Virus record (IMG/VR): IMGVR_UViG_3300037467_003067
Span: 64,001 to 128,000 of that record
DNA from: a virus
Lineage: Duplodnaviria > Caudoviricetes
Length of the DNA: 64,000 bases
Reading direction: 5' to 3' (one strand)
In this document: positions 560 to 57,277 of the stretch, in pieces
Layout of the letters: each line of letters opens with the position of its first letter
Position numbering within the stretch: the stretch's first letter is position 1
The notes under the pieces: model-generated
The model's input: only the letters and a program-made list of their open reading frames with translations
Databases searched by the model: none
Told to the model about the DNA's origin: nothing
Position numbers and translations under genes: made by a program

Positions 560-1447
560 ATGATCGAATTAAGCAATGGACATAAGTTCAGTTTTCAATG
601 CGCATCAGGAGCCTTGGGCTTCGACGGACTCGGATACTTCTGGGAATATCCCCTAAGGTGGCTCGGTCTCATCGACCCAACCCAATTCACCGTCGTCGCC
701 AAGACCGTCACGCTCAATCCCAGAGAAGGCAACCTCAGCATGTGGCACCCCTGGACCTGCGTCCGACTGCTCCCCGAAGGCACGGTCAACAGCGTCGGTC
801 TCACCAACCCCGGTCTCGAAACCTGGATTGAAACCTATTACCCACGCGCCCAAAAGAAAGGCTACGACCTCGCCGCATCCGTCGAATCCGATAGCTGGGA
901 AGACGCCTTCGTCATCGGCACCTTCCTCGCCGATTGCGACCTTAAATTCATCGAAGTCAACGTAAGTTGCCCGAACGTAGGTAAAATGACGCCTGCTGAT
1001 ATGGTCACAAAAGTTATCAAAGGATTAAAGGAATCTTGCCCCAAGCATCCCGTCATCCTCAAGATGTCCTTCCAGCAAACACAAGATGAACAACTCGTGA
1101 CCAAATTGGGGCAACTCGACGAGATCGAGGCAGTCCATGTTATCAACTCCGTGCCCTGGGAAGTCATCTTCCCCGACCAACCCTCGCCCCTGGAGAAGTA
1201 CAACCTCACAGGTGGTGTCAGCGGTACGTACATCCACAGCCTCGCCAGGACCGCTGTGAGGAACATCAAAAGACTGATCCCCAACAAGCCGGTCGTTGCG
1301 GGCGGCGGGATCTACTCCCTCCAAGAAATAAGCAATTTCAAATATGATGGGGCATCCGCATATTCCTTCGGAACGCTCTTCCTCAGGAAACCTTGGATGC
1401 CCAACCAAATCATCAAGCAGATCAAGAACTACGAGGCGTGGCTTTAA
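560..1447 (+). CDS. pyrD: dihydroorotate dehydrogenase, family 1
   Basis: Motifs ASG, KTVT..PR.GN, NSVGLTNPG, EVNVSCPN, GGVSG, GGGI. Confidence 0.9.
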   Translation: MIELSNGHKFSFQCASGALGFDGLGYFWEYPLRWLGLIDPTQFTVVAKTVTLNPREGNLSMWHPWTCVRLLPEGTVNSVGLTNPGLETWIETYYPRAQKKGYDLAASVESDSWEDAFVIGTFLADCDLKFIEVNVSCPNVGKMTPADMVTKVIKGLKESCPKHPVILKMSFQQTQDEQLVTKLGQLDEIEAVHVINSVPWEVIFPDQPSPLEKYNLTGGVSGTYIHSLARTAVRNIKRLIPNKPVVAGGGIYSLQEISNFKYDGASAYSFGTLFLRKPWMPNQIIKQIKNYEAWL

Positions 1448-1869
1448 ATCGTGCCGCCCGTGTCGCCCGCATTCGGAACAATCATGTTGTTCATCGACAG
1501 GTCGGGCGGGCGACCAGTTGGCACATTGCCAGGGACATTCCCCAAGCCCGGTCCCTGACCCGGTGGGCTATTACTCAGGTCGATAAGATGGGTCCACCGC
1601 GTGGACACCTTCTGACGGATCTCCTGCTTGACGCCGTTGGGAACCTGCGGATCAGACATCACGGCATTCACAATCGCATTGAGAATCTGCGAACCCGTAG
1701 GACCATTCAACGCGCTAGAAATCGACGCCGATAAGTCCTTGAATGCCATCTGAAGTCTGCTGGAATAGGGCGCAATCTGACCCGCACCATTCCCGATCGG
1801 CGCGGATACCCCACTATTATCATTCATATCTTCACGCAAACGAACATACTGACCGAATGTTTTTATCAA
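1444..1869 (-). CDS. hypothetical protein with capsid-targeting-like N-terminus
   Basis: SD AGGAG upstream of TTG; N-terminus MIKTFGQYVRLRE. Confidence 0.7.
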   Translation of the reverse strand: MIKTFGQYVRLREDMNDNSGVSAPIGNGAGQIAPYSSRLQMAFKDLSASISSALNGPTGSQILNAIVNAVMSDPQVPNGVKQEIRQKVSTRWTHLIDLSNSPPGQGPGLGNVPGNVPTGRPPDLSMNNMIVPNAGDTGGTI

Positions 1870-2201
1870 TTTTCACTCCTACTGCGAGTTTCTACACGTA
1901 GATGTATAACTATGGTTATCGGGCTTGCCTTAGAAATCAGTTTTGCCCTGAAATCTAATTTTTGGCAACTGAAATTGAGTCACAAGAATAATTGCGATCA
2001 GCCCTAGATCAGTAATAACTACTCTAGCGAGTTTTGGTTTTTCGAGCAAGATCAATATTTGCCTGAAAAATCATATCCAAGAATTGATTCTTGGACAAAG
2101 TCCTAGTCCTAGTTATGAGTAAACTTGTTAAAAGTTAACTCTATGACACTATATATGCCTTACACGCTGCTGTTAGTTAAACGCTTAGGAGCAAATAAAA
2201 T

Positions 2202-4082
2202 ATGCGAAGAAATTTAATTAAGTGGGAAGCGTTTGAAAGAATCCAGAAGGATTCTTTGTCGGCGGCTGAGCACGAACTGTTCGAAGCATCGGAAGTCCTC
2301 GCTGAGGCTTTGGGCGTCGATCAACTTGGTCTCAACTGCTACAGCGATTCAAACGTTATCTACGAAACTCTGGACAATACCTATGTCCGAGCAGATTATG
2401 CCCTTTCCCATGACCACCTGACCTTCGAAAACATCGAAGAACTGGTCATCGACGAGGAAACCGCCGCAGAGGCAAGCAAGCAAAAGATCTCCGACCTGGT
2501 CGAGGCGATCCTGTCTAACGAGAGCCAAAAGGCTGACCAGATCCTTTCCGATTACATGTCCTCACCCGACGTTCGCAAGACCCTCATGGAAGGTCGTAAA
2601 GCCGGTTTCGTTCGCGACAAGAGCGAAGTCAAAGCCGCTGCCAAGACCAAGTCCAAGAACGCCGGAAAGTCCTTCATCAAGGCTCGCAAGCGATTGCTTG
2701 ATGCCGCTCCTGATGCCAACACCGGACCCCGCCTCAAGCGAGGAACCTTCGGTAGCATCAAGAATGACCCCAAAGGATATCAGAAGCGATACTGGAAGAC
2801 CCGTGGCAAGAAGCAAGGTCGTAACGTCATCAACGCTCAGGGCAAGGTCGAGAAAAAGAAGCACTGTATGAAGGAATTCTACAGCCTCGCCGAAAACGTC
2901 CTCGGCTTCGTTCACTACCACAACTTCGGTCCCCTTCTCCAAGAATCCGTCATCCATCGCGATCAGAAAGGTAACGTCGTCGCTGTCAAGATGCCGACCC
3001 TCAAGATCCGAAATGAGAACCGCATCCTGACCCTCAACCACAAGCACCAAATCGACAGCGATGTCAAAGTCGTGCGTGAAGAGGCTCACGGACTCGCGAC
3101 CGATGTCCGATTCTGCAAGGCTGTTGCCGAACTCAAGCGACACAACAACTTCTCGGATAATGAAGCCCTCAAGGAATGCCTCAACAACCTCGTTGGGCAG
3201 TTCCCCAGCGTGCTTTACCTCTCCCAGACCGAACTGTCGCACACCGTCGCCGAAGCCCTCGACACCGCTGGTGTCGCCAACTACGACGACCAGACCTGCG
3301 ACTTCATCGCCGAAGGTATCCTCCGCACCGCTTACGATGTCTTCGGAGATCGCGTCGAGCGAATCCTGCGATTCGCCCAAGCCGATGTCCAGACTGAAGG
3401 CGATGCCTACGTACACTTCCAAGATGTTGTTCATAAGTTCTTCCCAACACTTGACGAAAACTACACGTTACAGATGCAGGTCTTCACCGACCTCTTCAAC
3501 GCTGTCAACGAAGTGTGGGGACTCGCAACAGAGGCGGGCGACGCTGCTACCGTCAAGGACGCCGAGACCATCCTCGAAGAACTCTCCGCGATCGTCGATG
3601 GACAGGCTACCGCCGATATCAACCTCGCCGAAGAAGTCGCCGAATGGCTCGCTCAGTATGTCGAGAGCAACCTCGAAGGCGGCGAATGGCAGATCCCTGG
3701 ACCGCACGTCACCATCAATGGCGACCACCCGGCGATGAACGACAAGGCTCGCAAAAGCTACAGTCCCGCTCAGGACGCTGGAGCCGATGCCGAGGCTTGG
3801 CACAACCGAGCCACAGAAAAGCAGTTCACCGGTTCCATGTGGACCAACGTGGGCGGCGAAGGCATCTTCCCAAACCTCAACAATCCTTACATCCCTAAGC
3901 CGTTCGGTGACTACACCATGAAGGGCGAGAAGGGCGTCGATAAGGACAACGGCGGCGAAGGCACCTGGCAGGATAGCAACACCTGGCCAAACCTGACCAA
4001 TCCCAACGTTCCCAAGGCAGAAACGCCCAAGAGCTACAAGATGAAGAACGGTCCGGAAACCGACTTGGTTGTTGATAAGTAA
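2202..4082 (+). CDS. putative prohead core/head assembly protein
   Basis: 626 aa, strong SD, codon bias like the capsid gene, directly upstream of the prohead protease; function inferred from position only. Confidence 0.55.
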   Translation: MRRNLIKWEAFERIQKDSLSAAEHELFEASEVLAEALGVDQLGLNCYSDSNVIYETLDNTYVRADYALSHDHLTFENIEELVIDEETAAEASKQKISDLVEAILSNESQKADQILSDYMSSPDVRKTLMEGRKAGFVRDKSEVKAAAKTKSKNAGKSFIKARKRLLDAAPDANTGPRLKRGTFGSIKNDPKGYQKRYWKTRGKKQGRNVINAQGKVEKKKHCMKEFYSLAENVLGFVHYHNFGPLLQESVIHRDQKGNVVAVKMPTLKIRNENRILTLNHKHQIDSDVKVVREEAHGLATDVRFCKAVAELKRHNNFSDNEALKECLNNLVGQFPSVLYLSQTELSHTVAEALDTAGVANYDDQTCDFIAEGILRTAYDVFGDRVERILRFAQADVQTEGDAYVHFQDVVHKFFPTLDENYTLQMQVFTDLFNAVNEVWGLATEAGDAATVKDAETILEELSAIVDGQATADINLAEEVAEWLAQYVESNLEGGEWQIPGPHVTINGDHPAMNDKARKSYSPAQDAGADAEAWHNRATEKQFTGSMWTNVGGEGIFPNLNNPYIPKPFGDYTMKGEKGVDKDNGGEGTWQDSNTWPNLTNPNVPKAETPKSYKMKNGPETDLVVDK

Positions 4083-4089: not shown

Positions 4090-4872
4090 ATGGAGGTCAG
4101 GAGAGTGAACAATAAATGGAACAATGTTGATGTGAGCCTACAAGTGGCGAACAACATCGAACTCCTGCTCCCCCTAAACGAGAACTACCATGAGGGACAT
4201 CAATACCTCATGGTAGACTCGTGCCAAGGCGGCGGGTTTTTTCTCGACCTTCTGGAATCCACCAACGGTGGTCGTAGGACCAAATTCCGTGGCAAGTTCC
4301 AGGAAGCAGAAGCCGTAAACAAAAACAAGAGAATGTATCCATATAGCATTCTTGATGAGAATATCGGGCGACTCCAAGAGACCATCACCGCTGGTGGACT
4401 CGTCGGAGAACTCGACCACCCGACCGACTCCATCATCCACTTCGCTAACGCCTCCCACAAAATTACTAAGTTGTGGTGGGATGGCAATGTGCTGATGGGA
4501 GAAGGCGAAATTCTCGGCACGCCACATGGAATGATCCTCAAGGCTCTCATCGACGACGACGTTCGGGTCGGCATTAGTAGCCGAGGCGTCGGAAACGGTA
4601 AGGTCAACGAGGATGGTATCCTGGTTATCGGCGAATCCTATAAGCTGATTACCTTCGATGCCGTCGCTGACCCCAGCACCTTCCAGGCATTTCAGAAGGA
4701 AATCGTCGGAAACAAGCGAGAAAGCTATGTCCCACGAAATTCCGATAATAATACAAAAAATGTTCATAGCAGCATATATAACGTACGCAAAGAACAAGTT
4801 ATAGCTTGCTTGGGCGGCATTGTTAAAACACAAACCAATGAAATAAAGGCGAGGTTAAATAATAATGGATAA
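4090..4872 (+). CDS. gp21: prohead core protease (T4 gp21-like)
   Basis: NKNKRMYP, GELDHP, VGISSRGVG, FDAVADPS motifs; synteny. Confidence 0.92.
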   Translation: MEVRRVNNKWNNVDVSLQVANNIELLLPLNENYHEGHQYLMVDSCQGGGFFLDLLESTNGGRRTKFRGKFQEAEAVNKNKRMYPYSILDENIGRLQETITAGGLVGELDHPTDSIIHFANASHKITKLWWDGNVLMGEGEILGTPHGMILKALIDDDVRVGISSRGVGNGKVNEDGILVIGESYKLITFDAVADPSTFQAFQKEIVGNKRESYVPRNSDNNTKNVHSSIYNVRKEQVIACLGGIVKTQTNEIKARLNNNG

Positions 4873-5779
4873 GGTTTTGGAAGCGTTGAAGCACTTGCTG
4901 CCGGAAGACAGCGTGAAGGAGATCTCCGAAGCGGTCTCAGGCATTCTTGAAGACGCCAAGAAAGAAATCGGAGATGAGTTCAACACCAAGCTAGAGGAAG
5001 CTTATGCTGATCTGGCTAAGGAGTTGGGCGATGCCGAGAAGACGGCTGAAGAAGGTTACACGGAAGCCTGGGGTATCATCCAGGATCTCCGCAACCGACT
5101 CGAAGCCCAGAAGGGCGAATTCGAAAAGGCTCTCGAAGATGGATATGCTGAAGCTTATGAGCTGATCCAGACCGAGAAGCAGAAGAATGAGAACCTGACC
5201 GCCGAGTTGTACGAAGAGTATGACCGTCGCCTCAAGGAAATGAAGGGATACATCGTCGAAAAGGTCGACGAATTCCTCAAGTTCCAGGGTGCCTCGATCT
5301 ACGAACAGGCTCGCCGCGATGTTCTCAATGACCCCCGCATGGCTGAACACAAGGTCACCCTCGACAAGATCGTCGACCTCGCCGTTAACTATGCCAGCGA
5401 CGAAGACTTCGCCTTCGCCAATAACAGCAAGCTCGAAGAAATGGCTCGCTCCGTCGACCAGTTGAAGTCTCAGGTTCGCCTTCTCGAAGGTCGTAACGTG
5501 AAGCTCTCAACCGAAAACACCAAGCTCAACGAACAGGTCCGCGCCGCCGCTGAAGTTATCACGGAAGCACGTGAACATAACTTGAAGATTGAGAGGAAAG
5601 AAAGAGTTAAGAATGGCAAGAACGCAAGTGGGAGAGGTAGCCTGATTGCCGAAGGTGTCATGCCCGAACCGCGTCACACCGCCAGCGAAGGCTCAAACGA
5701 TAGTGCGATCAATGAGAACACCAGCCCAGAACTTCATGAGATGCAAGTCCTTGCTGGGTTGAAGAAAGTTTCTTATTAA
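4865..5779 (+). CDS. gp22: prohead scaffolding protein (T4 gp22-like)
   Basis: Acidic coiled-coil protein between protease and major capsid gene. Confidence 0.75.
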   Translation: MDKVLEALKHLLPEDSVKEISEAVSGILEDAKKEIGDEFNTKLEEAYADLAKELGDAEKTAEEGYTEAWGIIQDLRNRLEAQKGEFEKALEDGYAEAYELIQTEKQKNENLTAELYEEYDRRLKEMKGYIVEKVDEFLKFQGASIYEQARRDVLNDPRMAEHKVTLDKIVDLAVNYASDEDFAFANNSKLEEMARSVDQLKSQVRLLEGRNVKLSTENTKLNEQVRAAAEVITEAREHNLKIERKERVKNGKNASGRGSLIAEGVMPEPRHTASEGSNDSAINENTSPELHEMQVLAGLKKVSY

Positions 5780-5806: not shown

Positions 5807-7282
5807 ATGGATATTAATGCTAGATTTTTGAATGAAGCCCGCGAAATCGAAGCTCAGTGGAGCCGAACCGGTCTTCTCGACGGAATTAACGATCGCTTCG
5901 TTCGTTCAACCACTGCCGTTCTTCTTGAGAACCAGAGGCTCATCAACGAAGTAAGCACCGACACCAGCGATATCGCTCAGTTCAAGCGAATCTCGATTCC
6001 CTTGGTCCGACGTATCTACCCCCAGCTTATCGCTAACAAGATCGTATCTGTTCAGCCGTTGCTGGGTCCGACCGGGTTGGTCTACTACCTCCGCTTCCGT
6101 TACAGCAGCAACAAGGGCGCTACCCGTGGTGCTAGCAACAACGGCGGCTTCCCCGGTGACGATGTCAACACGCTGATGCAGCGTGCCTCCGGTGATGCCA
6201 ACCTCGACAATTGGTACACCCACCAGTTCGTTCCCAACGAGGTCACCTCGACCGATGCCGGTAGCGACACTGTGGCTGTCTACGCTCCCCTGGAGCACAC
6301 CCCGATCCTCGGCGGAACCATGACGGGTACGGTTTATGTCGGCACCACCGCCGTCCAGACCTTCGTCGTCCTCGAAAATGGTAACTTCGTCTTCACCGCG
6401 ATCGGCTCGCCGACCACCTACGTCAACGTCAGCGGTGCCGCCAGCGGTACGATCACGGCTGGCTCGGGTGCCTCGCTGAACCTCACCACTGGTGAATTGT
6501 CGTTGACATTCAACAGCGCTCCTAGTTCCAATTATGTCGTAGTTAATTATGAATATAATATGGAATGTAATCAAGATCTCCCGGAGATCAACCTCGTGAT
6601 CGAGTCCGAGGAAATCGCCGCTAAGACCCGTAAGCTGAAGGCTGTTTGGAGCTACGAGGCTCAGCAGGATCTCCGATCCCAGCACAACCTCGACGCCGAA
6701 GCCGAACTGACCGCCGTCTTGGCTCAGGAAATCAACCTCGAAATCGATCGTGAGATTCTCACAGACTTGCGCAATAATGCCGGAACCGTGGCAGCATGGG
6801 ATTTTAATACCGCGCTAGGCGATACCATCAAAGAAAAATATGAAAGCTTGTACGTAAAAGTAGTTGAGCTTTCCGCCGTCGTTCACCGTAAGACCCTCCG
6901 TGGTGGCTGCAACTGGCTCGTTACGTCTCCTGAAGTCGCCTCGATGTTCGAGACCGCGACCGCTGGATTCGCCCCGACCCCCAGCGAAACCTTCACGACC
7001 TCCCTCGGTGTCCAGTACGTCGGAACTATCAACAGCCGATGGCGCTTGTATAAGGACCCCCTCTTCCCGCAGGGTCAAATCCTCGCCGGGTACAAGGGTG
7101 ATAGTTACATGGATTCTGGTTATTTCTATTGTCCATATGTTCCTATGACTCAGACCCCGGTCGTCCTTGATCCCGAAAGCTTTTGCCCACGTAAAGGTAT
7201 CTTAACTCGGTACGGGAAGAAGTTGCTTCGCGAGGGAGCAAAGTTCTACGCGAGACTGAGTATTGCTAACTTCATCATCTAA
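5807..7282 (+). CDS. gp23: major capsid protein (T4 gp23-like) with a beta-rich insertion
   Basis: AVLLENQ, VSVQPLLGPTGL, AKTRKLKAVWS.E.QQDL, EINLEIDREI, FYCPYVP, TRYG motifs. Confidence 0.96.
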   Translation: MDINARFLNEAREIEAQWSRTGLLDGINDRFVRSTTAVLLENQRLINEVSTDTSDIAQFKRISIPLVRRIYPQLIANKIVSVQPLLGPTGLVYYLRFRYSSNKGATRGASNNGGFPGDDVNTLMQRASGDANLDNWYTHQFVPNEVTSTDAGSDTVAVYAPLEHTPILGGTMTGTVYVGTTAVQTFVVLENGNFVFTAIGSPTTYVNVSGAASGTITAGSGASLNLTTGELSLTFNSAPSSNYVVVNYEYNMECNQDLPEINLVIESEEIAAKTRKLKAVWSYEAQQDLRSQHNLDAEAELTAVLAQEINLEIDREILTDLRNNAGTVAAWDFNTALGDTIKEKYESLYVKVVELSAVVHRKTLRGGCNWLVTSPEVASMFETATAGFAPTPSETFTTSLGVQYVGTINSRWRLYKDPLFPQGQILAGYKGDSYMDSGYFYCPYVPMTQTPVVLDPESFCPRKGILTRYGKKLLREGAKFYARLSIANFII

Positions 7283-11377: not shown

Positions 11378-12250
11378 ATGATTAGAGATAAGAAGAAGGG
11401 ATGCATGTACGGGCTTGCCATCGGCGATGCTCTCGGTGCGGCTGTTGAGTTTCGTGATCCGGGTACATTCCCGCCTGTGACAGGTTATCGAGGGAGTGGA
11501 CCGCACGGCATCGAGGCTGGTGCCTGGACTGACGACACGAGCATGGCACTTGCCTTAGCCGATAGTCTTGCTCATGATGGGAGCGCAAAAGACCAACTTG
11601 AGCGATACGTAGCATGGCATCAAGAAGGTAAATATTCGGTGAATGGTTGGTGTTTCGACATTGGCTGTACGACCAAGACGGCGTTGGAAGATTTTGTGCA
11701 GAAGGGGAATCTTCAGGGACCGTCGGAGGAGTGGGATAGTGGCAACGGGTCGATCATGCGTCTTGCACCGCTTGTGATTAAGTTTCATGGTTGTAGCGAT
11801 TTGTATGATAAGGCGGTAGAATCCAGTGTCGTGACACATGGAAGTCGATTGTGTAAATCAGCATGTGATTTTCTAGCTGAATTTCTTGAAGTTTTGATGG
11901 ATTCTTCGCCCGAGGACGATCGCGAAGATATGTTAGAATATGGAAATTATGAACCTGAGATCAACAAGGTGATTCGTTGGGGTTGGCGAGACAACCAGGA
12001 CATTCGGGGGACGGGGTTTGTTGTACAGAGTTTGGAAGCGGCGTTGTGGGCGTTCATGACATCGAACAGTTTTGAGGAAACGGTCTTGAAGGCTGTGAAC
12101 TTAGGAGAGGACTCGGATACGACTGGTGCGGTTGCGGGGCAGATGGCGGGTGCTTATTGGGGGTTTGATGCGATCCCGCAGTCTTTGGTTGATGGTTTGG
12201 CACGCAAGGATATGATTGATCTGTATTTGAACCCGATACTATTGAGTTAA
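11378..12250 (+). CDS. ADP-ribosylglycohydrolase (DraG/ARH family)
   Basis: GLAIGDALGA, WTDDT, GNGSIMRLAP, VNLGEDSDTTGAVAG. Confidence 0.93.
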   Translation: MIRDKKKGCMYGLAIGDALGAAVEFRDPGTFPPVTGYRGSGPHGIEAGAWTDDTSMALALADSLAHDGSAKDQLERYVAWHQEGKYSVNGWCFDIGCTTKTALEDFVQKGNLQGPSEEWDSGNGSIMRLAPLVIKFHGCSDLYDKAVESSVVTHGSRLCKSACDFLAEFLEVLMDSSPEDDREDMLEYGNYEPEINKVIRWGWRDNQDIRGTGFVVQSLEAALWAFMTSNSFEETVLKAVNLGEDSDTTGAVAGQMAGAYWGFDAIPQSLVDGLARKDMIDLYLNPILLS

Positions 12251-12714
12251 AGTAGCTTGATGATTTTTGCTGCTGGAGTTCTGTATTCGATGACCGGAAT
12301 TGGAGGTAGCTGATACGTACGTGTCAGTCTACTGGTCTTGTACGGAACCCCTGCCCAATAATTCTTGGCAGCTTCTTCTAGCACTAGTGGATTGGGATCA
12401 TCGTTGTGTCTGATTCGCAAGTCGATCTCGGTGTACCAGCCTTGATCTGAGCTTTCGACTTTCCCTTGTGGTTCGACCACGTAGATATAGTCTTGGTAGC
12501 CGCCCAACTTGCCGATGTCTTTGGTCTCTTTTGCCATGTAGATAGATTGAGCTCGCGGGAGCATGTTAGCCGGTCGGTATTTTTCGAGTATCACCTCGAC
12601 CGGATGTCCTTTGGTGTAACGGGCGGCGTTTGGTACCAGGATAGTGCCTTCGGGCAATTTCTTTGTCGATCCGTGATAGAAAAGGCTCTCCCACTGTTTA
12701 AATGAACTAACCAT
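12247..12714 (-). CDS. Arr-like ADP-ribosyltransferase-fold protein with capsid-targeting-like N-terminus
   Basis: FYHGS...G.IL.P, IYM, YIYVVEP.G; N-terminus MVSSFKQWES. Confidence 0.6.
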   Translation of the reverse strand: MVSSFKQWESLFYHGSTKKLPEGTILVPNAARYTKGHPVEVILEKYRPANMLPRAQSIYMAKETKDIGKLGGYQDYIYVVEPQGKVESSDQGWYTEIDLRIRHNDDPNPLVLEEAAKNYWAGVPYKTSRLTRTYQLPPIPVIEYRTPAAKIIKLL

Positions 12715-46206: not shown

Positions 46207-47862
46207 TCAACCGGAACGTGTATTGCCGTTAATGACATTGAGACAATCGTGAGCTTTTTCGAGGGTCTGTTTGACCATGTACCCAGCGGAGGTGTCATCG
46301 TCATAAGGATCATCGTATACTGATTCGTAATGAGCGATAACTTCTTCGCAGAGTTTGTACACCAACTTGCCAAATCGCTTCATCAATTTGCCGATTTCGC
46401 GGCGACGAGGGTTGTCACGTAAGACAATCGAACTCTCTGCTCCGTAAGGCTTGGGGTCGTGTGTCTTGGTGAAGTAAGAGTAGTTCGTCTTGGCGTATTG
46501 GTATCCCTCCAAGGCACGACTAACAGTCTCAATAATAGTATAAATATATTCCTTGAAGTTATATCCGGATTCTACCTTGATGTTACGATAATCCTTCATC
46601 CTGAGCCAATTATTGTCGACCAACAATTTCAATTGGTCAATATTCCAAGACAATCGATCCGTAATTGACTTGAAATCATCATTGAGTTGGTAGTTAATGA
46701 CTTCATGGTCTGGCAATTCGAACAACTGCACCTCGGCGATTCGTCTTAAGTCGCCGATTTCCTTGGTGTGGCTGATCATGTGCTGCTTTTGTGCTTCGTC
46801 CATGTTGGAAAGGTCGATGATCTCCTTTCTCTTTTGATCCGAGATCGGAGCCGACATCGCCTTCGTTAAGGCATCTTGGTTTTGGAATTCATGGTCGAAT
46901 TTTTGCTTGATCGCCTCTTTGGTTCGACTGTCCAGGTTGGGGCTATAGATCAGATCGACGGCTTTAGTGTCCAAATCGGGTTTGTAATCTCCGATGATTT
47001 CGAAGCAATTCTTAATAGGCAATGGGTCAGGACCGTCGGCGAGTAAGAGTGCGGCAACGTAAGGATGAAGTTCCGGGTTGACCTTTTGATTGGAATATCC
47101 TTTGGCTTCGCCCAGATTATGGTTGTTGATGATGTAAGTGGCTTCTACCTGGTTTTGTGGATTCTTTAGAGAGACGATACGGTCTTCCGGGCGATGTTGA
47201 CCCAGGATATTGCCGCAATGACCGCCAGCATTTCCTTCTTGGTCGCAGTATGCCTTGTCGAGGGCGATCCACTTCCAACCGTCTGGGAACTGAATCAAGA
47301 CTCGTCCTTGCGGTCCTTCGGTCCTGGAAGCATTTTTATCTTTGTTCTGTGCGGTTGTTCGGAACAAGGCGGCGTCTTGTTGTAGGTATCTGAAGCTTAC
47401 AGCAGGCGTGCCTAGACCCATGCCGGTGGGTGGGGTCGCTTTCCCGAGAGCCTTCCAGAAATTGGGGTTGTTCACGTTAGCGTGAAACACATCTTTGACT
47501 TGGTCCCATTCAGCACGGGTGATATAGACCGGCTTCGGCGCGTATTTATGAGCCCCTAGTCTCATGCTGCCCATTTGTCTTGATGGGAGATCCATGGAGG
47601 TTTCGCCCTTATAGCCGCCGATTAGAATGTGCAAGGCAAGCCAGTTGAGAAGAATGTTGAGCTTATCGCCTTTTAGACCTTGTAGCAATTCAGCATCGTT
47701 CTGGGACAATTCTCTTTGTGCCCTGGCTTTTGCTTCTTGCACGTATGGAGCACAGTTAGGGTTTTGCAGGATATCCTTGACGGTCCCATTGGCGGCACGA
47801 CCCGCATTGTACCAGAAGTAATCCTCGTCGCCTTCGAGCCAGAGTTTGAACTGCAACATCAT
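46207..47862 (-). CDS. PcfJ-like domain protein with capsid-targeting-like N-terminus
   Basis: DGWKWIALDKAYC.QEG...GHCGN, closely similar to 35363; MLQFKLWLE. Confidence 0.65.
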   Translation of the reverse strand: MMLQFKLWLEGDEDYFWYNAGRAANGTVKDILQNPNCAPYVQEAKARAQRELSQNDAELLQGLKGDKLNILLNWLALHILIGGYKGETSMDLPSRQMGSMRLGAHKYAPKPVYITRAEWDQVKDVFHANVNNPNFWKALGKATPPTGMGLGTPAVSFRYLQQDAALFRTTAQNKDKNASRTEGPQGRVLIQFPDGWKWIALDKAYCDQEGNAGGHCGNILGQHRPEDRIVSLKNPQNQVEATYIINNHNLGEAKGYSNQKVNPELHPYVAALLLADGPDPLPIKNCFEIIGDYKPDLDTKAVDLIYSPNLDSRTKEAIKQKFDHEFQNQDALTKAMSAPISDQKRKEIIDLSNMDEAQKQHMISHTKEIGDLRRIAEVQLFELPDHEVINYQLNDDFKSITDRLSWNIDQLKLLVDNNWLRMKDYRNIKVESGYNFKEYIYTIIETVSRALEGYQYAKTNYSYFTKTHDPKPYGAESSIVLRDNPRRREIGKLMKRFGKLVYKLCEEVIAHYESVYDDPYDDDTSAGYMVKQTLEKAHDCLNVINGNTRSG

Positions 47863-48352: not shown

Positions 48353-48838
48353 ATGCTGTTTAAAGAGTGGCTTCTCAAAGAAGAAGAGGAAGATGATGAC
48401 ATGGGAATGGATCTCGCCGACCAGATTCAATCGGCAATCGGTTCGGTCGCAATGAATTCCTACCGCCGCACTCGTGTACCGAAGGGATATCCCAGTGAGA
48501 TCATGGGACGATATCTCAATCAGGTGCGAGGCATCCGCGACTGGATTCAGAAAACCCGATTTCCGGTGAACCTGGAGAATTTGGATTTGGCATCCCAAGC
48601 CCTAGCTGACGCGATTCTTGACTTTCGCCGAAACGGTGGTATATTCGAGCCTGCAAGTTACGTCGGCGGGGCTGACCCCCGTTCAGCCGAACATCTGTCG
48701 CAGTTCGCTCAATTCCTGAGGCAGCGAATGAATCAACCAAAAGTCTACGGCAAGCAATGGGGACAGTTTCCCGAGTATTGGGACGCCTTCATGGAAGATT
48801 TTTCGGAAGCGGCAAAAAGATGGAAGGCTGAACAATGA
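48353..48838 (+). CDS. hypothetical protein with capsid-targeting-like N-terminus
   Basis: MLFKEWLLKEE. Confidence 0.7.
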   Translation: MLFKEWLLKEEEEDDDMGMDLADQIQSAIGSVAMNSYRRTRVPKGYPSEIMGRYLNQVRGIRDWIQKTRFPVNLENLDLASQALADAILDFRRNGGIFEPASYVGGADPRSAEHLSQFAQFLRQRMNQPKVYGKQWGQFPEYWDAFMEDFSEAAKRWKAEQ

Positions 48839-50565
48839 GAGGGCTACATTTCCAACGCTGGCTTGAGAACCAGGAATATGACCAATTCCGTGGGCTGATC
48901 GATCAGGCTGCCCAAGGCAGAGACTTTGCATTCAAAAGTTGGTTCCCTGAAGGTGAACGTGTATACATTCCGTTCACCCCTCAAGGAGGCGAACAACAAA
49001 ACTACGACAAAGATATCGCCGAAGCCCTGAGTGACATTGGGTATACCATCAAAGATTACCGTGCCGGGCTGGCAGTCAATGCTCAAGGACGAGTCATGCG
49101 GATTGGCAAATTGCTCAACAGTATGTACCAGAAGGATATCGCCGAACTCGATGCCAGCAGAGCGAACATCTCTCCAATTACTTACGAACGAAAGAGAAAA
49201 GAGAATATCGAGTATTGGACCGAATTGTTGAATATGTTCCAGAATTCACCTTATCGGTCGCATTCGGCAACCGGCGACACACAGGCTTACTACGTCGTGA
49301 TCAGCAGCAACATCCACGACATCGGGGCGATGTCCACGGGAAGGTCGTGGGAATCTTGCATGAACCTTCAGAAAGGTGCCCACTCCGACGACGTGTATTG
49401 CGAGGTGAAGAAGGGCGGCTTTGTCGCCTATCTGATCCAAGGCAATGACCGAGACATCAAGCGACCTTTGGCTCGAATCTCGATCAAGCGATTCGAGAAC
49501 AAGGCTGGAGATTCGATTGCGATGCCCGAAGACACGGTCTACGGCAACGACATGTCCGGTTTCCAGGAGACCGTGAGGAAGTGGATCGAGTCCAAGCAAG
49601 GACCGGTCAAGGTTGGTCTGTATAAGAGACGGGGCGGGGAATACTCGGACAGCCTCGGCTCGCATCATATTCAGGGCGACACGACTGCCAAGGGCTTAAT
49701 GAGAATGATTCGTTTCGGTCTCAGCAAGGGGACCTGGAATCCCCGTCGCCGTCCCTATTTCGATGCGGCAATCAAGGAGATCAATTCCGGCAAGCAGCGA
49801 TTCGGTCTCAAATTCTTGCGCAAAGTCGCCGACATTCTCAAGGGACAGTCTCAGGGTTTTCGCAAGGATGAGCTTGTAGATTTTGCGATGGCTCACCCTC
49901 AGGCAGTTGACAAAGAATTGTATGAGATGCTGCCGGAATTCAAGAAGGACAAATTTGATGAGATCGATCCCAAGTTCACGCAGGATCGAATCGTCAAGGC
50001 ATACGAACTTTTGGATGGCGGGTTAACTATCGAGAACCCGGCATTGGAATTGGATAAAGGATTGAATTACGGAAACGTCGGCAAGATTAACGACCTTCTC
50101 CAGCACACTCAGAAGATCAAGCAAATGCCCGAGAGTATGATCCGACAAGTGGTCCAATTCGGCAAAGATTTGCTGGAGAGGTTCGGGGGCGAGATCCAGA
50201 GGAAACCGGCAAGATTACCGGGGGCACGAAGCCCTCTGATTTCGGCACTTGGGTCCGTCATTCATGCTCTTGACATGGCACATGCCGATACGCCAACTGT
50301 TGTCAATTGGTATCATGAGTTGTTGCCTTATTTTGATGACTTGGGTGGAATCAATGGGTCATTTGGACGAGCTTTTGCTCGGCTGGGAATCAACGGGACA
50401 CCGTTCCTGTCATTCTTGCAAAAGAAAAAGCAAGAGTTGGAAGAGAAGGCGGCACGAGGCGAGGGATATCCTGAATTCAATAAAAAGCAAATTGAACAAT
50501 TCAATTATGTGATTGATTCGATTGAGAATGGTTCGGGGAGATCTGACAGGTATACGTACTTCTGA
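48835..50565 (+). CDS. hypothetical protein with capsid-targeting-like N-terminus
   Basis: LHFQRWLENQE; conserved-looking DI.AMSTGRSWESCM and PLARI motifs. Confidence 0.7.
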   Translation: MRGLHFQRWLENQEYDQFRGLIDQAAQGRDFAFKSWFPEGERVYIPFTPQGGEQQNYDKDIAEALSDIGYTIKDYRAGLAVNAQGRVMRIGKLLNSMYQKDIAELDASRANISPITYERKRKENIEYWTELLNMFQNSPYRSHSATGDTQAYYVVISSNIHDIGAMSTGRSWESCMNLQKGAHSDDVYCEVKKGGFVAYLIQGNDRDIKRPLARISIKRFENKAGDSIAMPEDTVYGNDMSGFQETVRKWIESKQGPVKVGLYKRRGGEYSDSLGSHHIQGDTTAKGLMRMIRFGLSKGTWNPRRRPYFDAAIKEINSGKQRFGLKFLRKVADILKGQSQGFRKDELVDFAMAHPQAVDKELYEMLPEFKKDKFDEIDPKFTQDRIVKAYELLDGGLTIENPALELDKGLNYGNVGKINDLLQHTQKIKQMPESMIRQVVQFGKDLLERFGGEIQRKPARLPGARSPLISALGSVIHALDMAHADTPTVVNWYHELLPYFDDLGGINGSFGRAFARLGINGTPFLSFLQKKKQELEEKAARGEGYPEFNKKQIEQFNYVIDSIENGSGRSDRYTYF

Positions 50566-50585: not shown

Positions 50586-50870
50586 TCACTTCTTCTTGTT
50601 AAGAATACGGTCCGCACAACGCTTGATGCCCTCGGGGTTGGGGGCGTTGTGGGCATAAGCCTTGGCGGCTCGGGCTTGCTTGGCATTAGTGACGGGGAAA
50701 CTGCCCTTGGGAGCACCACCGGCTGGACCACAAAACGGACCTTCGCCCGCCGACGAGGTCTCGCGATCCTTGCCAACATTCGATCCGCCCGGCTTCTTGC
50801 GAGCAGCTTCTTCATCCTTCGGCAGACCTTCGCTTTCCTTTGCTTCTAAAAATTCTTTCCAGGTTATCAT
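50586..50870 (-). CDS. small basic protein with capsid-targeting-like N-terminus
   Basis: MITWKEFLEAKES; SD GGAG. Confidence 0.75.
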   Translation of the reverse strand: MITWKEFLEAKESEGLPKDEEAARKKPGGSNVGKDRETSSAGEGPFCGPAGGAPKGSFPVTNAKQARAAKAYAHNAPNPEGIKRCADRILNKKK

Positions 50871-50878
50871 ATAATTAA

Positions 50879-54789: not shown

Positions 54790-54852
54790 CTGAAAACTCG
54801 GAAAAATCCAAATTGACTGGCGAAAGCATCCGGGACTGACTCGTTTACTCTC

Positions 54853-56481
54853 ATGGACACAACCGAAGATATCAGCCGATTTTCTCACCCCAAGATGGCA
54901 TACTACCGCTACGTCTACCGCAACAGTCCGAAATGGGATGGCAAGCAATCGCTGGAAAACAAGACCGTCATCGTCTACGGCGAACAGGGTTATGGCGACA
55001 TCATCCAATTCGTCCGCTACATCCCCTCCCTAATGCATCAGAAATGCCGCGTAATCGTCCACTGCCCCCAACCCCTTCACCGGCTCTTCGGAGTTAGCAG
55101 CATCGGTCACGAATGGATCGACCGCGACATCGAGGAATTACCCGACCACGACTTTCACATCCCTTCCATGAGCATGCCATTCAAGGGACTAACTGAAACT
55201 CCATCCCCTTATCTCAAAGTCTCTGAAAAAAGAAACGACATCCAAGGCGAATTCAAAGTGGGGATCGCCTGGGAAGGCAATCCCGAACATTCGAACAACT
55301 TCCTGAGGAGTTGCCACCTCTCCCTCTTCCAGCAAATTCAGGAATTGCCCCATGTGACAATGTACATGCTACAAGAAAAAATCAACATTCCAGAATTCGC
55401 CGATGTCAACGAGAACTTCCAACTCTTCTCCGTGAATAAGACCGATTTCTACGATACCGCAACCCTCATCAATTCCATGGACCTGATCATTTCGGTAGAC
55501 ACCTCAGTCTTACATTTAGCAGGTGCCTTGGGCAAGGAAAATGTCTACGGACTTCTCTCCAATCCCTGCGATGCCCGCTGGGAAGTCAAAAATTGGTATC
55601 CCAATACAACCCTTATCCACGACCAAGACGGCAACTGGACCAATACATTCCGAACCCTGGAAAGGGTTGCTGCTTCCAAGAATACAGCAGTCAAGATACA
55701 TCGCCAATTCAAAACTAAAGAAAACTACGACAGCATCCTCGTCACGGGCGGCATCGGCGACTTCATCGCCCTCGAAAGTCACATGAATAATGACCTCAGG
55801 AAAAGGATCAAGCGGATATATCTTGCTACCCGTGCCGATCAAACAATCGAGCAATTGGCTCGACCGATCTTCAACGAAGCCGATATCGTCAAGATATTTT
55901 CCGACTACACAAAGATGACGTTCTATCAGAAGACCGAGGTCGCCGCCCATCTCAAAGCAATCAAATGCCCTTTCCCATCCGATTGGCGTTCGGTGGAAGA
56001 TTGGAGCATCCTCGTCAAATTCGACGAGATCAACCGAGGCAAGTATCGCTACCACGGCACCAAAATTTTCGATCACATCAATGATTGCTTTGATTGGGAC
56101 AATTATATCGTTGTTTGTCCCATGACCAATACCGAGAGAGATACGGGACGTGACTTCGACCAGAAAGACTGGCAGGATACAATTAATCGCCTAGAAATTA
56201 CCAATAAGACCGGAATTGTCATCGCCGGGGAACGAGTGGAAGTCCCGAATCATCACAAGCTAATCAATCTCTCAGGACAAACTTCCCTGTTCGAATCGAT
56301 CGGCATTCTGAAGAAAGCAACGGGTTACATCGGCATCGATTCGTTCCTGTCAATTTTGGCAGCCCAGAGATTCAATCCCCCGAACATCCTCGTGAAAAGC
56401 ATCAATCCACATCTATACAAGTATTCTAATATTTACTATGCTCCACACGAGGACCGAAGTTTTATCAAGCCGAGGCTGTAA
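54853..56481 (+). CDS. tandem GT9-like glycosyltransferase
   Basis: EQGYGD.IQF.RY, VGIAW.GNP.H, ISVDTS..HLAGALG; second unit GGIGD...YIGIDS. Confidence 0.8.
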   Translation: MDTTEDISRFSHPKMAYYRYVYRNSPKWDGKQSLENKTVIVYGEQGYGDIIQFVRYIPSLMHQKCRVIVHCPQPLHRLFGVSSIGHEWIDRDIEELPDHDFHIPSMSMPFKGLTETPSPYLKVSEKRNDIQGEFKVGIAWEGNPEHSNNFLRSCHLSLFQQIQELPHVTMYMLQEKINIPEFADVNENFQLFSVNKTDFYDTATLINSMDLIISVDTSVLHLAGALGKENVYGLLSNPCDARWEVKNWYPNTTLIHDQDGNWTNTFRTLERVAASKNTAVKIHRQFKTKENYDSILVTGGIGDFIALESHMNNDLRKRIKRIYLATRADQTIEQLARPIFNEADIVKIFSDYTKMTFYQKTEVAAHLKAIKCPFPSDWRSVEDWSILVKFDEINRGKYRYHGTKIFDHINDCFDWDNYIVVCPMTNTERDTGRDFDQKDWQDTINRLEITNKTGIVIAGERVEVPNHHKLINLSGQTSLFESIGILKKATGYIGIDSFLSILAAQRFNPPNILVKSINPHLYKYSNIYYAPHEDRSFIKPRL

Positions 56482-57277
56482 CTCTATGACTGGCGGCATG
56501 AGATAGGTGGAAAAGCAATTCTTGAATAACTTGCTGTAACCTTGTTGGATTGGTCTGAATAAGTTGCTGGAAGGCTTGTTGATTATGCTTGAGATTTCGC
56601 ATAAACTGCTGAGCCACAAGCATAGAGTCCGAAGTACCCTTGTCGTCTTTCCCGTAGTTCAATCTTCCCATGCTGGCTCGATCATCCTCTTTCTTGCCAA
56701 TCTGAGAAAAGAATCCTTGTACGGCTCGTTCGATCTGCTGCTGTACATTCGCGTCATAGAAGTGGATGACAATTTGGTCTTTATTCTGATAAAATCCTCC
56801 AAAACTGGTGCCAATCTTAAACCCGATCACATCGGATTGCATATCTGTTTGTACAGTGTCGAGATTCTTGGCAAGTATAGGAAGTGATTGAAGGACGGTC
56901 CATATGTCATTGGGCTGGATTGAAATGTATCTCTTAGAGGTTTGCCCGTTCGTTTTGACGCCCTTGTGATTGCCCTTCCTGTACCACTCGATCCAAGCGC
57001 CATTGCTGTCGGCTGTCCAACCCATGGTTGCCAAAACCTGTGTCAACTTTTGAATAAGTTGCTTATAAGATTGGTTGTATTGTTGATACTGCTGAGGGTT
57101 TTGCATCAAATCCTGGACAACCTTATGCCGTTCCCCGTGATCAGTGAGACTGCCGTAGACGATATTAGTCATGAGTTGTTCAGGAACTTTGCCAGCAAAA
57201 TAATTAGGCAAATTTTGAATAATCAACTGTACATCATTAGCATTTTCTAATAGGTAAAACCAATCTGAAAAATCCAT
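56465..57277 (-). CDS. hypothetical protein with capsid-targeting-like N-terminus
   Basis: MDFSDWFYLLEN; Gln-rich. Confidence 0.7.
   Translation of the reverse strand: MDFSDWFYLLENANDVQLIIQNLPNYFAGKVPEQLMTNIVYGSLTDHGERHKVVQDLMQNPQQYQQYNQSYKQLIQKLTQVLATMGWTADSNGAWIEWYRKGNHKGVKTNGQTSKRYISIQPNDIWTVLQSLPILAKNLDTVQTDMQSDVIGFKIGTSFGGFYQNKDQIVIHFYDANVQQQIERAVQGFFSQIGKKEDDRASMGRLNYGKDDKGTSDSMLVAQQFMRNLKHNQQAFQQLIQTNPTRLQQVIQELLFHLSHAASHRVTASA

What the first reader, a model, noticed from the sequence alone, without database searches (positions are those of the whole stretch)
1444..57277. About 15 unrelated proteins share a capsid-targeting-like N-terminal tag: a head-packaged effector set
Seen N-termini: MIKTFGQYVRLRE (1869), MVSSFKQWES (12714), MVLSFMEWLQLRES (13521), MKTFTEWLDLRE (14022), MQFKLWLEN (14870), MRFSNWFLLTES (16017), MDFRMWLVESE (16822), MRFLEWIILTEN (35363), LKTWLEATES (38322), MKTFEEW..NES (42232), MLQFKLWLE (47862), MLFKEWLLKEE (48353), LHFQRWLEN (48835), MITWKEFLEAKES (50870), MDFSDWFYLLEN (57277). 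Consensus F-x-x-W-hydrophobic...E. Established: T4 internal proteins carry a ~10-aa capsid-targeting sequence (MKTYQEFIAE-type) cut after Glu by gp21, and a gp21 homologue is present here. Inference: a portable tag loads ART-like, ParB-like, GNAT, PcfJ-like and SpeD-like cargo into the head for injection, on a larger scale than T4's few internal proteins.
Basis: partly seen in the sequence, partly recalled or inferred. Interest (0 to 1): 0.82.

Follow-up and report, generated by a model that had tools for sequence, protein, structure and literature searches.

The report
T4-like head-loading tag, massively expanded
About one gene in eight of this uncultured giant T4-related phage begins with a 10-13-residue peptide that closely matches the signal phage T4 uses to load proteins into its head, so the phage probably packs dozens of unrelated proteins with its DNA, though no packaging has been measured.

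Summary
Observation confirmed, and larger than stated. All 15 N-termini are present. Across the 298.6-kb record that holds the window, about 37-41 genes carry the tag against about 0.4 expected. A 595-kb relative (LR756511.1) has 33, and 80 related IMG/VR loci have 68.

The tag is selected as a peptide, because synonymous codons vary. It is portable: only 3 similar pairs occur among 37 mature parts. It sits only at N-termini.

Its invariant residues are an aromatic pair three residues apart, followed by a hydrophobic residue. These match T4 CTS residues 4, 7 and 8, the published targeting and processing determinants. 31 of 37 tags then have a hydrophobic-x-Glu site. A strict T4-type pattern recovers exactly IPI, IPII, IPIII and gp61.1 in T4, 9 genes here, and 0-1 in six other T4-like or jumbo phages.

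The window encodes an S77 (gp21-type) protease with the catalytic His and Ser, and a gp23-type capsid protein.

Packaging and cleavage are inferred, not shown.

This scan has noted the same tag in the neighbouring window and similar tags in other huge phages. I found no paper describing it. Verdict: a new variant of a known kind.

The parts
1444..1869 (-). Tagged gene, 141 aa, TTG start behind an AGGAG site. Low-complexity Gly/Pro/Asn-rich body. Lies divergently next to the head-gene block.
   Evidence: Aromatic pair at residues 5 and 8; L-R-E ends at residue 13. Genes at the same position in about 25 related loci start with the MKTF-type tag. No Pfam or PHROGs family.
2202..4082 (+). Unknown 626-aa protein directly upstream of the protease. 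It is not the portal.
   Evidence: No Pfam family. The T4 gp20 homologue lies outside the window at G000 59602-63459. The Atlas search gave nothing usable. Its role in head assembly is inferred from position only.
4090..4872 (+). Prohead protease, T4 gp21 type. Proposed enzyme that removes the tag.
   Evidence: Pfam Peptidase_S77, 86.8 bits against a cut-off of 27. It is the only S77 gene in the 298-kb record. It aligns with T4 gp21, and the His of the DHP motif and the Ser of the SSRG motif are conserved.
4865..5779 (+). Probable scaffold (gp22 position). Glu/Lys-rich, 304 aa.
   Evidence: It lies between the protease and the capsid gene, as in T4. It has many hydrophobic-x-Glu sites and no Pfam family. 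TTAAATA lies 3 nt before its ATG. It has no tag-like repeats.
5807..7282 (+). Major capsid protein, gp23 type.
   Evidence: Pfam Gp23, E 4.5e-83. The site that aligns with the T4 gp23 maturation cut reads L-I-N-E then V. This is the same hydrophobic-x-Glu rule seen in the tags.
12247..12714 (-). Weakly tagged gene, 155 aa, weakly Arr-like (ADP-ribosyltransferase). It converges on an ADP-ribosylglycohydrolase gene.
   Evidence: Aromatic pair at residues 5 and 8, then Glu 9, with no hydrophobic residue after the pair. Arr-ms E 0.0067 and ARR-2 E 0.029. Three homologues lack the aromatic pair. The AF2 model was unusable. CTAAATA lies 9 nt upstream.
13521..14018 (+). Tagged gene, 165 aa, unknown function.
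   Evidence: Aromatic pair at residues 5 and 8; L-R-E ends at residue 13. Matrix score 23. CTATATA lies 5 nt upstream. No family found.
14022..14315 (+). Tagged gene, 97 aa, unknown function. Its start is the most T4-like (MKTF...).
   Evidence: Aromatic pair at residues 4 and 7; L-R-E ends at residue 12. CTAAATA lies 4 nt before the ATG. No Pfam family.
14316..14870 (-). Tagged gene, 184 aa, weakly ParB-like.
   Evidence: Aromatic pair at residues 3 and 6; W-L-E ends at residue 8 and L-T-E at residue 14. PHROGs ParB-like or methyltransferase hits at E 1e-5 to 1e-3. GGAG lies upstream of the ATG.
14884..16017 (-). Tagged gene, 377 aa. Distant paralogue of 46207-47862.
   Evidence: Aromatic pair at residues 3 and 6; L-T-E ends at residue 11. 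CTAAATA lies 4 nt before the ATG. BLASTP E 5e-4 to 46207-47862.
16822..17193 (+). Tagged small ORF, 123 aa. My gene caller did not call it.
   Evidence: Aromatic pair at residues 3 and 6; L-V-E ends at residue 9. CTAAATA lies 4 nt before the ATG. No family found.
35363..36952 (+). Tagged gene, 529 aa. Member of a large family of unknown function with a conserved Cys/Glu/His/Cys block.
   Evidence: Aromatic pair at residues 3 and 6; L-T-E ends at residue 11. There are 250 homologues. In 54 of 120, an 11-14-aa leader ends just before a conserved box, and 42 of those leaders carry the aromatic pair. AF2 pLDDT 87: the tag is helix 3-10, with a break at 11-13. No fold match.
38322..39509 (+). Variant tag with an uncertain start codon, 395 aa.
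   Evidence: Trp 11 and Leu 12, then W-L-E and A-T-E sites. The first aromatic residue is at an atypical distance. phrog_29287, unknown function, E 9e-44.
42232..42651 (+). Tagged S-adenosylmethionine decarboxylase (SpeD), 139 aa.
   Evidence: Pfam AdoMet_dc E 1.5e-21; the domain starts at residue 23. It has a 20-aa leader with the aromatic pair at residues 4 and 7. Most of 58 homologues start 3-5 aa before the domain, and a few from other large contigs carry other tag-like leaders.
46207..47862 (-). Tagged gene, 551 aa. Paralogue of 35363-36952.
   Evidence: Aromatic pair at residues 5 and 8; W-L-E ends at residue 10. BLASTP E 3e-22 to 35363-36952.
48353..48838 (+). Tagged gene, 161 aa. The tag is followed by an acidic run.
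   Evidence: Aromatic pair at residues 3 and 6; L-K-E ends at residue 10. No Pfam family.
48835..50565 (+). Tagged gene, 576 aa, unknown function.
   Evidence: Aromatic pair at residues 6 and 9; W-L-E ends at residue 11. Matrix score 23. It has one tagged paralogue elsewhere in the genome.
50586..50870 (-). Tagged gene, 94 aa, with a Trp-x-x-Phe variant of the pair.
   Evidence: Aromatic pair at residues 4 and 7; F-L-E ends at residue 9 and A-K-E at residue 12. A second tag-like start lies 10 codons upstream in the same frame.
56465..57277 (-). Tagged gene, 270 aa, unknown function.
   Evidence: Aromatic pair at residues 3 and 6; L-L-E ends at residue 11. CTATATA lies 7 nt before the ATG.

Best explanation
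The shared N-terminus is a T4-type capsid-targeting propeptide that this clade of huge T4-related phages has spread over dozens of unrelated genes.

Proposed mechanism:
1. The genes are made late in infection.
2. The first 8-10 residues form a short amphipathic helix. Its aromatic pair (equivalent to T4 CTS residues 4 and 7) and the following hydrophobic residue dock the protein onto the scaffolding core of the assembling prohead.
3. The gp21-type S77 protease then cuts after the Glu of the hydrophobic-x-Glu site that closes the tag. This frees the mature protein inside the head, and it leaves with the DNA at infection.

Shown here: the tag itself, its position, its portability, selection at the peptide level, its match to the T4 determinants, the protease and capsid genes, and the clade-wide spread.

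Inferred: docking, cleavage, presence in virions and injection.
For: 1. Enrichment at N-termini only. 41 genes against 0.4 expected in this record, and 33 against 2.1 in LR756511.1. 68 N-terminal against 18 other hits in 80 related loci.

2. Peptide-level selection. Phe is coded by TTC 19 times and TTT 16 times. Leu uses four or more codons. Glu at +5 is GAA 7 times and GAG 7 times.

3. Portability. Only 3 similar pairs among 37 mature parts. Most SpeD homologues lack any leader. A 250-member family has a fixed leader/body boundary.

4. Match to T4.
- IPII and IPIII start MKTYQEFIAE and IPI starts MKTFKEF.
- The review PMC9026906 places targeting at residues 4 and 7 and processing at 8 and 10. 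These are the invariant columns of the tag.
- The pattern M-[KR]-[TS]-[FY]-x-x-[FWY] finds only IPI, IPII, IPIII and gp61.1 in T4.
- It finds 9 genes here, 15 in LR756511.1, and 0-1 in six other phages.

5. Processing site. 31 of 37 tags have hydrophobic-x-Glu just after the pair, against 17% of control N-termini. The capsid protein's predicted maturation site is L-I-N-E then V.

6. Machinery. S77 protease with conserved His and Ser, and a gp23-type capsid protein.

7. Timing. The motif [CT]TA[AT]ATA is promoter-like: 43 of its 122 copies lie within 80 nt upstream of starts. The looser core TA[AT]ATA lies 2-12 nt before the ATG of 11 of 37 tagged genes against 11 of 255 others. The full motif also lies upstream of the terminase gene and the 626-aa gene.

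8. Fast turnover, like the T4 internal-protein loci. 6 of 37 tagged genes have a homologue in LR756511.1 against 134 of 255 untagged genes, P = 3e-5.

9. AF2 model. The tag is a separate helix (residues 3-10, lower pLDDT), followed by a break at the Glu-Asn junction.
Against: - There are no virion proteomics, no N-terminomics and no cultured member of the clade.
- 12-14% of all genes is far beyond any known head cargo.
- Some cargo, such as SpeD, a CCA-adding or poly(A) polymerase-like enzyme and a P-loop kinase, has no obvious reason to be injected.
- The tag is not enriched in T4-like phages with intermediate capsid similarity: XacN1, Atu_ph07, RaK2, Mel-JY01, immuto and LR756508. Common descent with the T4 CTS is therefore not shown, and convergence or another use is possible.
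- The Glu lies at +5 or +8 from the first aromatic residue, not +6 as in T4.
- T4 gp61.1 has the same kind of start but lies beside the primase gene and is not a known virion protein.
- Only about a quarter of tagged genes have the late-promoter-like motif.
- The scaffold shows no tag-like partner motif.
Confidence: 0.6

Rival explanations
1. The tag docks proteins onto some other phage-made hub rather than the prohead. Examples are a chaperone, the phage's own actin-like filament or a compartment, or a modifying enzyme that recognises a shared leader.
For: The tag is clade-specific and absent from six other T4-like or jumbo phages that share the same head machinery. The cargo includes metabolic and RNA-processing enzymes. 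T4 gp61.1 shows that such a start can occur on a protein not known from virions. Earlier scan notes report shared leaders with non-capsid partners in other elements.
Against: No candidate partner gene was found to co-occur. The match to the T4 determinants (residues 4, 7, 8 and a Glu site) and to the start of all three T4 internal proteins would then be coincidence. The conserved hydrophobic-x-Glu end of the tag fits the S77 protease encoded here.
Confidence: 0.17
2. The tag is a removable propeptide that keeps enzymes inactive, or marks them for timed cleavage or degradation in the cell, without packaging.
For: A conserved Glu site closes the tag. In several proteins the tag directly abuts the catalytic domain. 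For example, a P-loop begins about residue 18, and the Arr-like core begins at residue 13.
Against: Prohead proteases of this family act inside the prohead (PMC9026906). A 10-residue helix joined by a flexible break is unlikely to inhibit such varied folds. This reading does not explain the aromatic pair that matches the T4 targeting residues.
Confidence: 0.08
3. The shared start reflects a constraint on the mRNA, such as translation of leaderless late transcripts, not on the protein.
For: Several tagged genes have the late-promoter-like motif only 4-7 nt before the ATG, which implies leaderless or nearly leaderless mRNAs.
Against: Synonymous codons vary freely at the conserved residues. Most tagged genes have ordinary Shine-Dalgarno sites. 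Other genes with the same promoter position, such as the scaffold gene, lack the tag.
Confidence: 0.04
4. The similarity is due to chance or to common descent of paralogues.
For: Three paralogous pairs exist among the tagged proteins.
Against: Enrichment is about 100-fold over the internal rate. 34 of 37 mature parts have no similarity to each other.
Confidence: 0.01

Closest known systems
Capsid-targeting sequence (CTS) of phage T4 internal proteins IPI, IPII and IPIII (Mullaney and Black 1996, as reviewed in PMC9026906 and PMC3012670)
   Same: Both are N-terminal propeptides of 10-19 residues that start M-K-T-F/Y. Both have aromatic residues at positions 4 and 7, a hydrophobic residue at 8, and a closing Glu site for the gp21-type protease. 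Both are attached to otherwise unrelated, fast-evolving proteins. Both occur in a phage with a gp21/gp22/gp23-type head module.
   Different: This phage has about 40 tagged genes in half a genome, against 3-4 in T4. The cargo includes large proteins (up to about 670 aa) and enzymes. Trp is preferred at the second aromatic position. The Glu lies at +5 or +8 instead of +6. Packaging is untested. The tag was not found in six intermediate T4-like lineages.
T4 Alt, a head-packaged ADP-ribosyltransferase processed by gp21
   Same: It is the precedent for an enzyme loaded into a T4-type head, cut by the prohead protease and injected. The window has a weakly Arr-like tagged gene.
   Different: Alt is not known to use the short CTS. 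The ART assignment here is weak (E 0.007-0.03, and the fold prediction failed).
Propeptide-bearing inner-body and ejection proteins of phiKZ-like giant phages (phiKZ, 201phi2-1, SPN3US; PMC9026906, PMC7411985)
   Same: Many different head-internal proteins are cut after Glu by a gp21-related prohead protease. Giant capsids carry tens of MDa of protein.
   Different: Those propeptides are long and dissimilar, and they share no uniform N-terminal tag. The cut motif has a small residue at P3. The phage lineage is different.
N-terminal targeting of Dar antirestriction proteins into the phage P1 head (PMC9024508; listed, not read)
   Same: Packaging of defence-countering proteins into a myovirus head through N-terminal determinants.
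   Different: The sequences are unrelated, the proteins are few, and the head machinery is different.

Membership tests
T4-type capsid-targeting sequence (CTS) | Lies at the extreme N-terminus, directly after the initiator Met | tested here: met
   41 N-terminal against 19 internal hits in 84,901 residues, with 0.4 N-terminal hits expected. The first aromatic residue is at residue 3-6 in nearly all tags.
T4-type capsid-targeting sequence (CTS) | Aromatic residues at CTS positions 4 and 7, the targeting determinants in IPIII genetics | tested here: met
   Phe, then Trp/Phe/Tyr three residues later, are the two near-invariant columns. The determinants are taken from PMC9026906. T4 IPI-III fit the same pattern.
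T4-type capsid-targeting sequence (CTS) | Hydrophobic residue at P3 and Glu at P1 of a gp21 cut site that closes the tag (positions 8 and 10 in T4) | tested here: inconclusive
   31 of 37 tags have hydrophobic-x-Glu, against 17% of controls. However, the Glu lies at +5 or +8 from the first aromatic residue, not +6. Cleavage itself was not tested.
T4-type capsid-targeting sequence (CTS) | Portable: heads otherwise unrelated proteins | tested here: met
   Only 3 similar pairs among 37 mature parts. SpeD homologues mostly lack a leader. One cargo family has a fixed leader boundary.
T4-type capsid-targeting sequence (CTS) | Occurs together with a gp21-type protease, a scaffold and a gp23-type capsid protein | tested here: met
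   Peptidase_S77 at 86.8 bits and Gp23 at E 4.5e-83. The catalytic His and Ser are conserved. The scaffold is assigned by position only.
T4-type capsid-targeting sequence (CTS) | Tagged proteins are expressed late | tested here: inconclusive
   The late-promoter-like core TA[AT]ATA lies 2-12 nt before the ATG in 11 of 37 tagged genes against 11 of 255 untagged genes. No transcript data exist.
T4-type capsid-targeting sequence (CTS) | Tagged proteins are present in virions with the tag removed | not testable with these tools
   No cultured member of the clade was found: the best cultured capsid match is 43% identity or less. Cultured jumbo phages with published virion proteomes (XacN1, Atu_ph07, RaK2) lack the tag.
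Peptidase S77 (T4 gp21 prohead protease) | Pfam model above the curated cut-off, and the catalytic His and Ser retained | tested here: met
   (87.1 bits against a cut-off of 27). The alignment with T4 gp21 has the His and Ser columns invariant in five phages. Which T4 residues are catalytic rests on my own recall.
S-adenosylmethionine decarboxylase (SpeD), for 42232-42651 | Full-length match to Pfam AdoMet_dc above the cut-off | tested here: met
   77.2 bits against a cut-off of 25. Profile positions 1-106 of 107 match residues 23-131.
ADP-ribosyltransferase (Arr-like), for 12247-12714 | Significant match to an ART family or an ART fold | tested here: inconclusive
   Arr-ms at 17 bits against a cut-off of 25. 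ARR-2 E 0.029. The AF2 model has pLDDT 33.
   No such hit at E <= 0.01 for any tagged protein in the window, nor for 62 members of the 529-aa family. Fold searches gave only weak rows.

The most novel reading that the evidence does not exclude
A widespread clade of roughly 0.5-0.6-Mb T4-related phages uses a T4-like address peptide to load some 40-80 different proteins into the capsid. That is at least 12% of its proteome. The load includes RNA-repair-type enzymes, an Arr-like transferase, SpeD and large families of unknown function. This fast-evolving protein set would be delivered with the DNA. It would be by far the largest and most varied virion cargo known to be addressed by a single short tag.
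Probability: 0.45. Interest if true: 0.8.

Novelty: new variant of a known kind. Interest (0 to 1): 0.62.

Why it matters
If the tag loads the head, it gives a sequence-only way to read out the injected protein set of uncultured huge phages. These proteins act before any phage gene is expressed, so they are prime candidates for counter-defence and host takeover.

It would show that the T4 CTS principle scales from 3 proteins to dozens. It would explain part of why these capsids and genomes are so large. It would also offer a natural set of tags and cargo sizes for protein delivery with phage capsids.

The claim is directly testable with a protease assay and a tag-reporter packaging assay.

Tried and rejected
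1. Cultured jumbo phages with published virion proteomes. XacN1, Atu_ph07 (first 400 kb) and RaK2 were fetched and scanned. The tag is not enriched in them (1, 5 and 3 hits against 0.6-1.1 expected). Their proteomes therefore cannot test this tag. XacN1 ORF272 (chitinase) was found in virions (PMC5852040), but it has a tag-like start only if an unannotated upstream start is used.

2. Intermediate T4-like lineages. Mel-JY01, Flavobacterium phage immuto and LR756508 show no enrichment. A continuous line of descent to the T4 CTS could not be shown.

3. The scaffold here has no tag-like segment; its best score is 1.6.

4. Fold of the Arr-like protein. The AF2 model was unusable.

5. Function of the 529-aa cargo family. 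The model is good, but there is no convincing PDB match by Foldseek or VIA. There are no Pfam families beyond HEAT/LRV repeats in a few members.

6. The 626-aa protein in the head block. No Pfam family and nothing usable in the Atlas.

I could not check whether the one family member that starts exactly at the tag/body boundary (P0006) is a miscalled start.

8. Literature. No paper in the searchable library describes an expanded CTS set in huge phages.

9. A megablast of 10 kb of the window against cultured phages found nothing.

Full report
WHAT THE WINDOW IS. The window is bases 64,001-128,000 of a 298,603-bp IMG/VR virus record. IMG/VR labels it 'provirus', and CheckV rates it 59% complete. 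Two of its proteins also occur on a 585,064-bp contig in the protein collection. The full genome is therefore probably near 0.6 Mb.

The closest public record is the uncultured 595-kb huge phage LR756511.1, with 74.6% capsid-protein identity. The best cultured phages reach 43% identity or less. IMG/VR holds 371 relatives with about 80% capsid identity, on contigs of up to 533 kb.

The window carries a T4-type head block:
- an S77 prohead protease at 4090-4872, Pfam 86.8 bits;
- a Glu/Lys-rich gene in the scaffold position at 4865-5779;
- a gp23-type major capsid protein at 5807-7282, E 4.5e-83.

The protease aligns with T4 gp21 and keeps the His and Ser of the active site. The T4 portal homologue is a 1,285-aa gene just outside the window. 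The 626-aa gene at 2202-4082 is therefore not the portal, and it remains unknown.

THE OBSERVATION. All 15 N-termini are present as described. I called genes with my own Markov-model caller, which gave 292 genes.
It occurs only 15 times anywhere else in about 76,000 residues. About 0.5 cases are expected, P about 7e-22.
- The looser pattern with any aromatic residue at the second position gives about 33 genuine cases against 2.3 expected.
- A position matrix gives 41 against 0.4 expected.
- After hand-removal of five hits at internal start codons, 37 genes remain. A few small uncalled ORFs also carry the tag.

The tag thus heads roughly 13% of the genes of the record and about a quarter of those in the window. 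One apparent hit, at 51254-51589, looks to me like the conserved start of a tRNA-binding domain rather than a tag; this is my own recall and was not scanned.

IT IS A PEPTIDE, IT IS PORTABLE, AND IT IS CLADE-WIDE.
- Synonymous codons vary freely at the conserved residues. Phe is TTC 19 times and TTT 16 times. Leu uses CTT, TTG, CTA and CTG. Glu at +5 is GAA 7 times and GAG 7 times. Selection therefore acts on the protein.
- With the tag cut off, only three pairs among 37 proteins show any similarity.
- LR756511.1 has 33 tagged genes against 2.1 expected.
- In 80 related loci around the capsid gene, 68 ORFs start with the tag, against 18 hits elsewhere in 525,618 six-frame positions. The 68 include a conserved small gene beside the head block.

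Two cargo families show the module boundary.
- SpeD (42232-42651). The Pfam domain starts at residue 23. About 30 of 58 homologues start only 3-5 residues before the domain. The copy here has a 20-residue leader, and copies on other large contigs, one of 669 kb, carry different tag-like leaders and linkers.
- The roughly 500-aa family of 35363-36952, with 250 homologues. In 54 of 120 members a leader of mostly 13 residues ends immediately before a conserved box. 42 of those leaders carry the aromatic pair, and the leader usually ends in hydrophobic-x-Glu followed by Asn or Ser. One member, as called, starts exactly at the boundary.

An AlphaFold model of this protein has mean pLDDT 87. It shows the tag as a separate short helix (residues 3-10, pLDDT about 66), then a break at residues 11-13, then the well-ordered body.

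COMPARISON WITH T4. From the T4 record itself, IPII and IPIII start MKTYQEFIAE and IPI starts MKTFKEF. The review PMC9026906 reports two findings from the work of Mullaney and Black. The first ten residues of IPIII suffice for packaging. Targeting depends mainly on residues 4 and 7, and processing on residues 8 and 10.

In the tag found here, the near-invariant columns are the aromatic pair and the hydrophobic residue after it. The pair stands at residues 4 and 7 in the MKTF-type starts, and between residues 3 and 9 in nearly all the others. Several tags begin with the same M-K-T-F.

The pattern M-[KR]-[TS]-[FY]-x-x-[FWY] at N-termini recovers exactly four genes in T4: the three internal proteins and the uncharacterised gp61.1. 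It finds 9 genes here and 15 in LR756511.1. It finds none in XacN1, Atu_ph07, RaK2, Mel-JY01 and immuto, and one in LR756508.

After the pair, 31 of 37 tags have a hydrophobic-x-Glu site, against 17% of control N-termini. The capsid protein's site that aligns with the T4 gp23 maturation cut reads L-I-N-E then V. This follows the same rule.

The differences from T4 are as follows:
- Trp is preferred at the second aromatic position.
- The Glu is at +5 or +8 from the first aromatic residue, not +6.
- The tagged set is ten times larger.

TIMING AND TURNOVER. The heptamer [CT]TA[AT]ATA resembles the T4 and cyanophage late promoter; that resemblance is my own recall. It behaves like a promoter here. 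43 of its 122 copies lie within 80 nt upstream of called starts, including the terminase gene and the 626-aa gene. A looser form, TTAAATA, lies 3 nt before the ATG of the scaffold gene.

The looser core TA[AT]ATA lies 2-12 nt before the ATG of 11 of 37 tagged genes, against 11 of 255 others, often at exactly 4 nt. This suggests late, leaderless transcripts. It is only suggestive, since about three quarters of tagged genes lack it.

Tagged genes turn over quickly. 6 of 37 have a homologue in LR756511.1, against 134 of 255 untagged genes (P = 3e-5). Four of those six homologues keep a tag-like start with the aromatic pair. The 2H-phosphoesterase homologue has none, and one homologue matches only the C-terminal part. 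This mirrors the variable internal-protein loci of T-even phages (PMC9026906, PMC3012670).

CARGO. Most tagged proteins match nothing in Pfam or PHROGs.

Identified:
- SpeD;
- a 2H phosphoesterase or LigT-like protein;
- a P-loop kinase;
- a CCA-adding or poly(A) polymerase-like protein, whose tag starts at residue 9.
The last three lie outside the window.

Weak:
- ParB-like for 14316-14870;
- Arr-like for 12247-12714. Its fold prediction failed.

Not found: GNAT and PcfJ-like.

WHAT WEAKENS THE CAPSID READING.
- There are no virion data.
- Six T4-like or jumbo phages with the same head machinery lack the tag. Homology with the T4 CTS is therefore not established.
- The scale is unprecedented.
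- Some cargo is puzzling.
- T4 gp61.1 lies in a replication-gene region.
- The earlier idea that the tag copies a scaffold repeat does not hold in this genome.

VERDICT. The best explanation, at about 0.6, is a T4-type capsid-targeting propeptide removed by the S77 protease. The main rival, at about 0.17, is docking to another phage hub.

No paper in the searchable library describes such an expansion in huge phages. This scan has already noted the same tag in the neighbouring window of this genome, and similar expanded tags in other huge phages.

Noticed in passing
window 11378-12250 (+) and 12247-12714 (-): An ADP-ribosylglycohydrolase gene (Pfam E 2.5e-67, untagged) converges on the weakly Arr-like tagged gene, and their 3' ends overlap by 4 nt. 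This could be a transferase and its reversing enzyme, a pairing known from toxin-immunity systems.
   Followed up: partly
window 14022, 16017, 16822 and 35363 (ATG positions), and others genome-wide: CTAAATA or CTATATA sits exactly 4 nt before the ATG of several tagged genes, with no Shine-Dalgarno site. The same motif lies 30-50 nt upstream of the terminase gene and the 626-aa head-block gene. This suggests T4-like late promoters that produce leaderless mRNAs.
   Followed up: partly
T4 NC_000866 18966-19130 (L077); G000 277748-277942 (L013:9748-9942) and G000 166038-166190: T4 gp61.1 (54 aa, unknown function) has a CTS-like start, a G-T-T-S-G motif and a Lys-rich tail. Small tagged ORFs of this phage have the same layout. 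gp61.1 may be an overlooked internal protein of T4, or it may be a warning that such starts are not always capsid signals.
   Followed up: partly
window 2202-4082 (+): A 626-aa protein directly upstream of the protease has no known family. Its N-terminus has a Trp-x-x-Phe pair at residues 8 and 11. The true portal homologue is a 1,285-aa gene at G000 59602-63459, outside the window.
   Followed up: partly
window 35363-36952, 46207-47862, 14884-16017: These are three tagged paralogues of a family with more than 250 members on large viral contigs. The family has a nearly invariant Cys/Glu/His/Cys block around residues 157-167 and a helical C-terminal half. The AF2 model is confident, but no PDB fold match was found.
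   Followed up: yes
LR756511.1 242585-242995 (W01); LR756508.1 156579-158096 (W06): The 595-kb relative has a second, divergent S77 protease gene far from its head block. In LR756508 the S77 domain lies inside a 576-aa open frame and matches in two pieces. The record that holds the window has only one S77 gene.
   Followed up: no
window 560-1447 (+), 9622-10449 (+), 8007-9119 (+): A dihydroorotate dehydrogenase-like gene (E 3e-25), a DUF1152 gene (E 1.5e-18) and a weak TnsA-like endonuclease hit lie around the head genes.
   Followed up: no
window 50586-50900 (-): The same reading frame has two consecutive tag-like starts ten codons apart. The true start is therefore uncertain.
   Followed up: no
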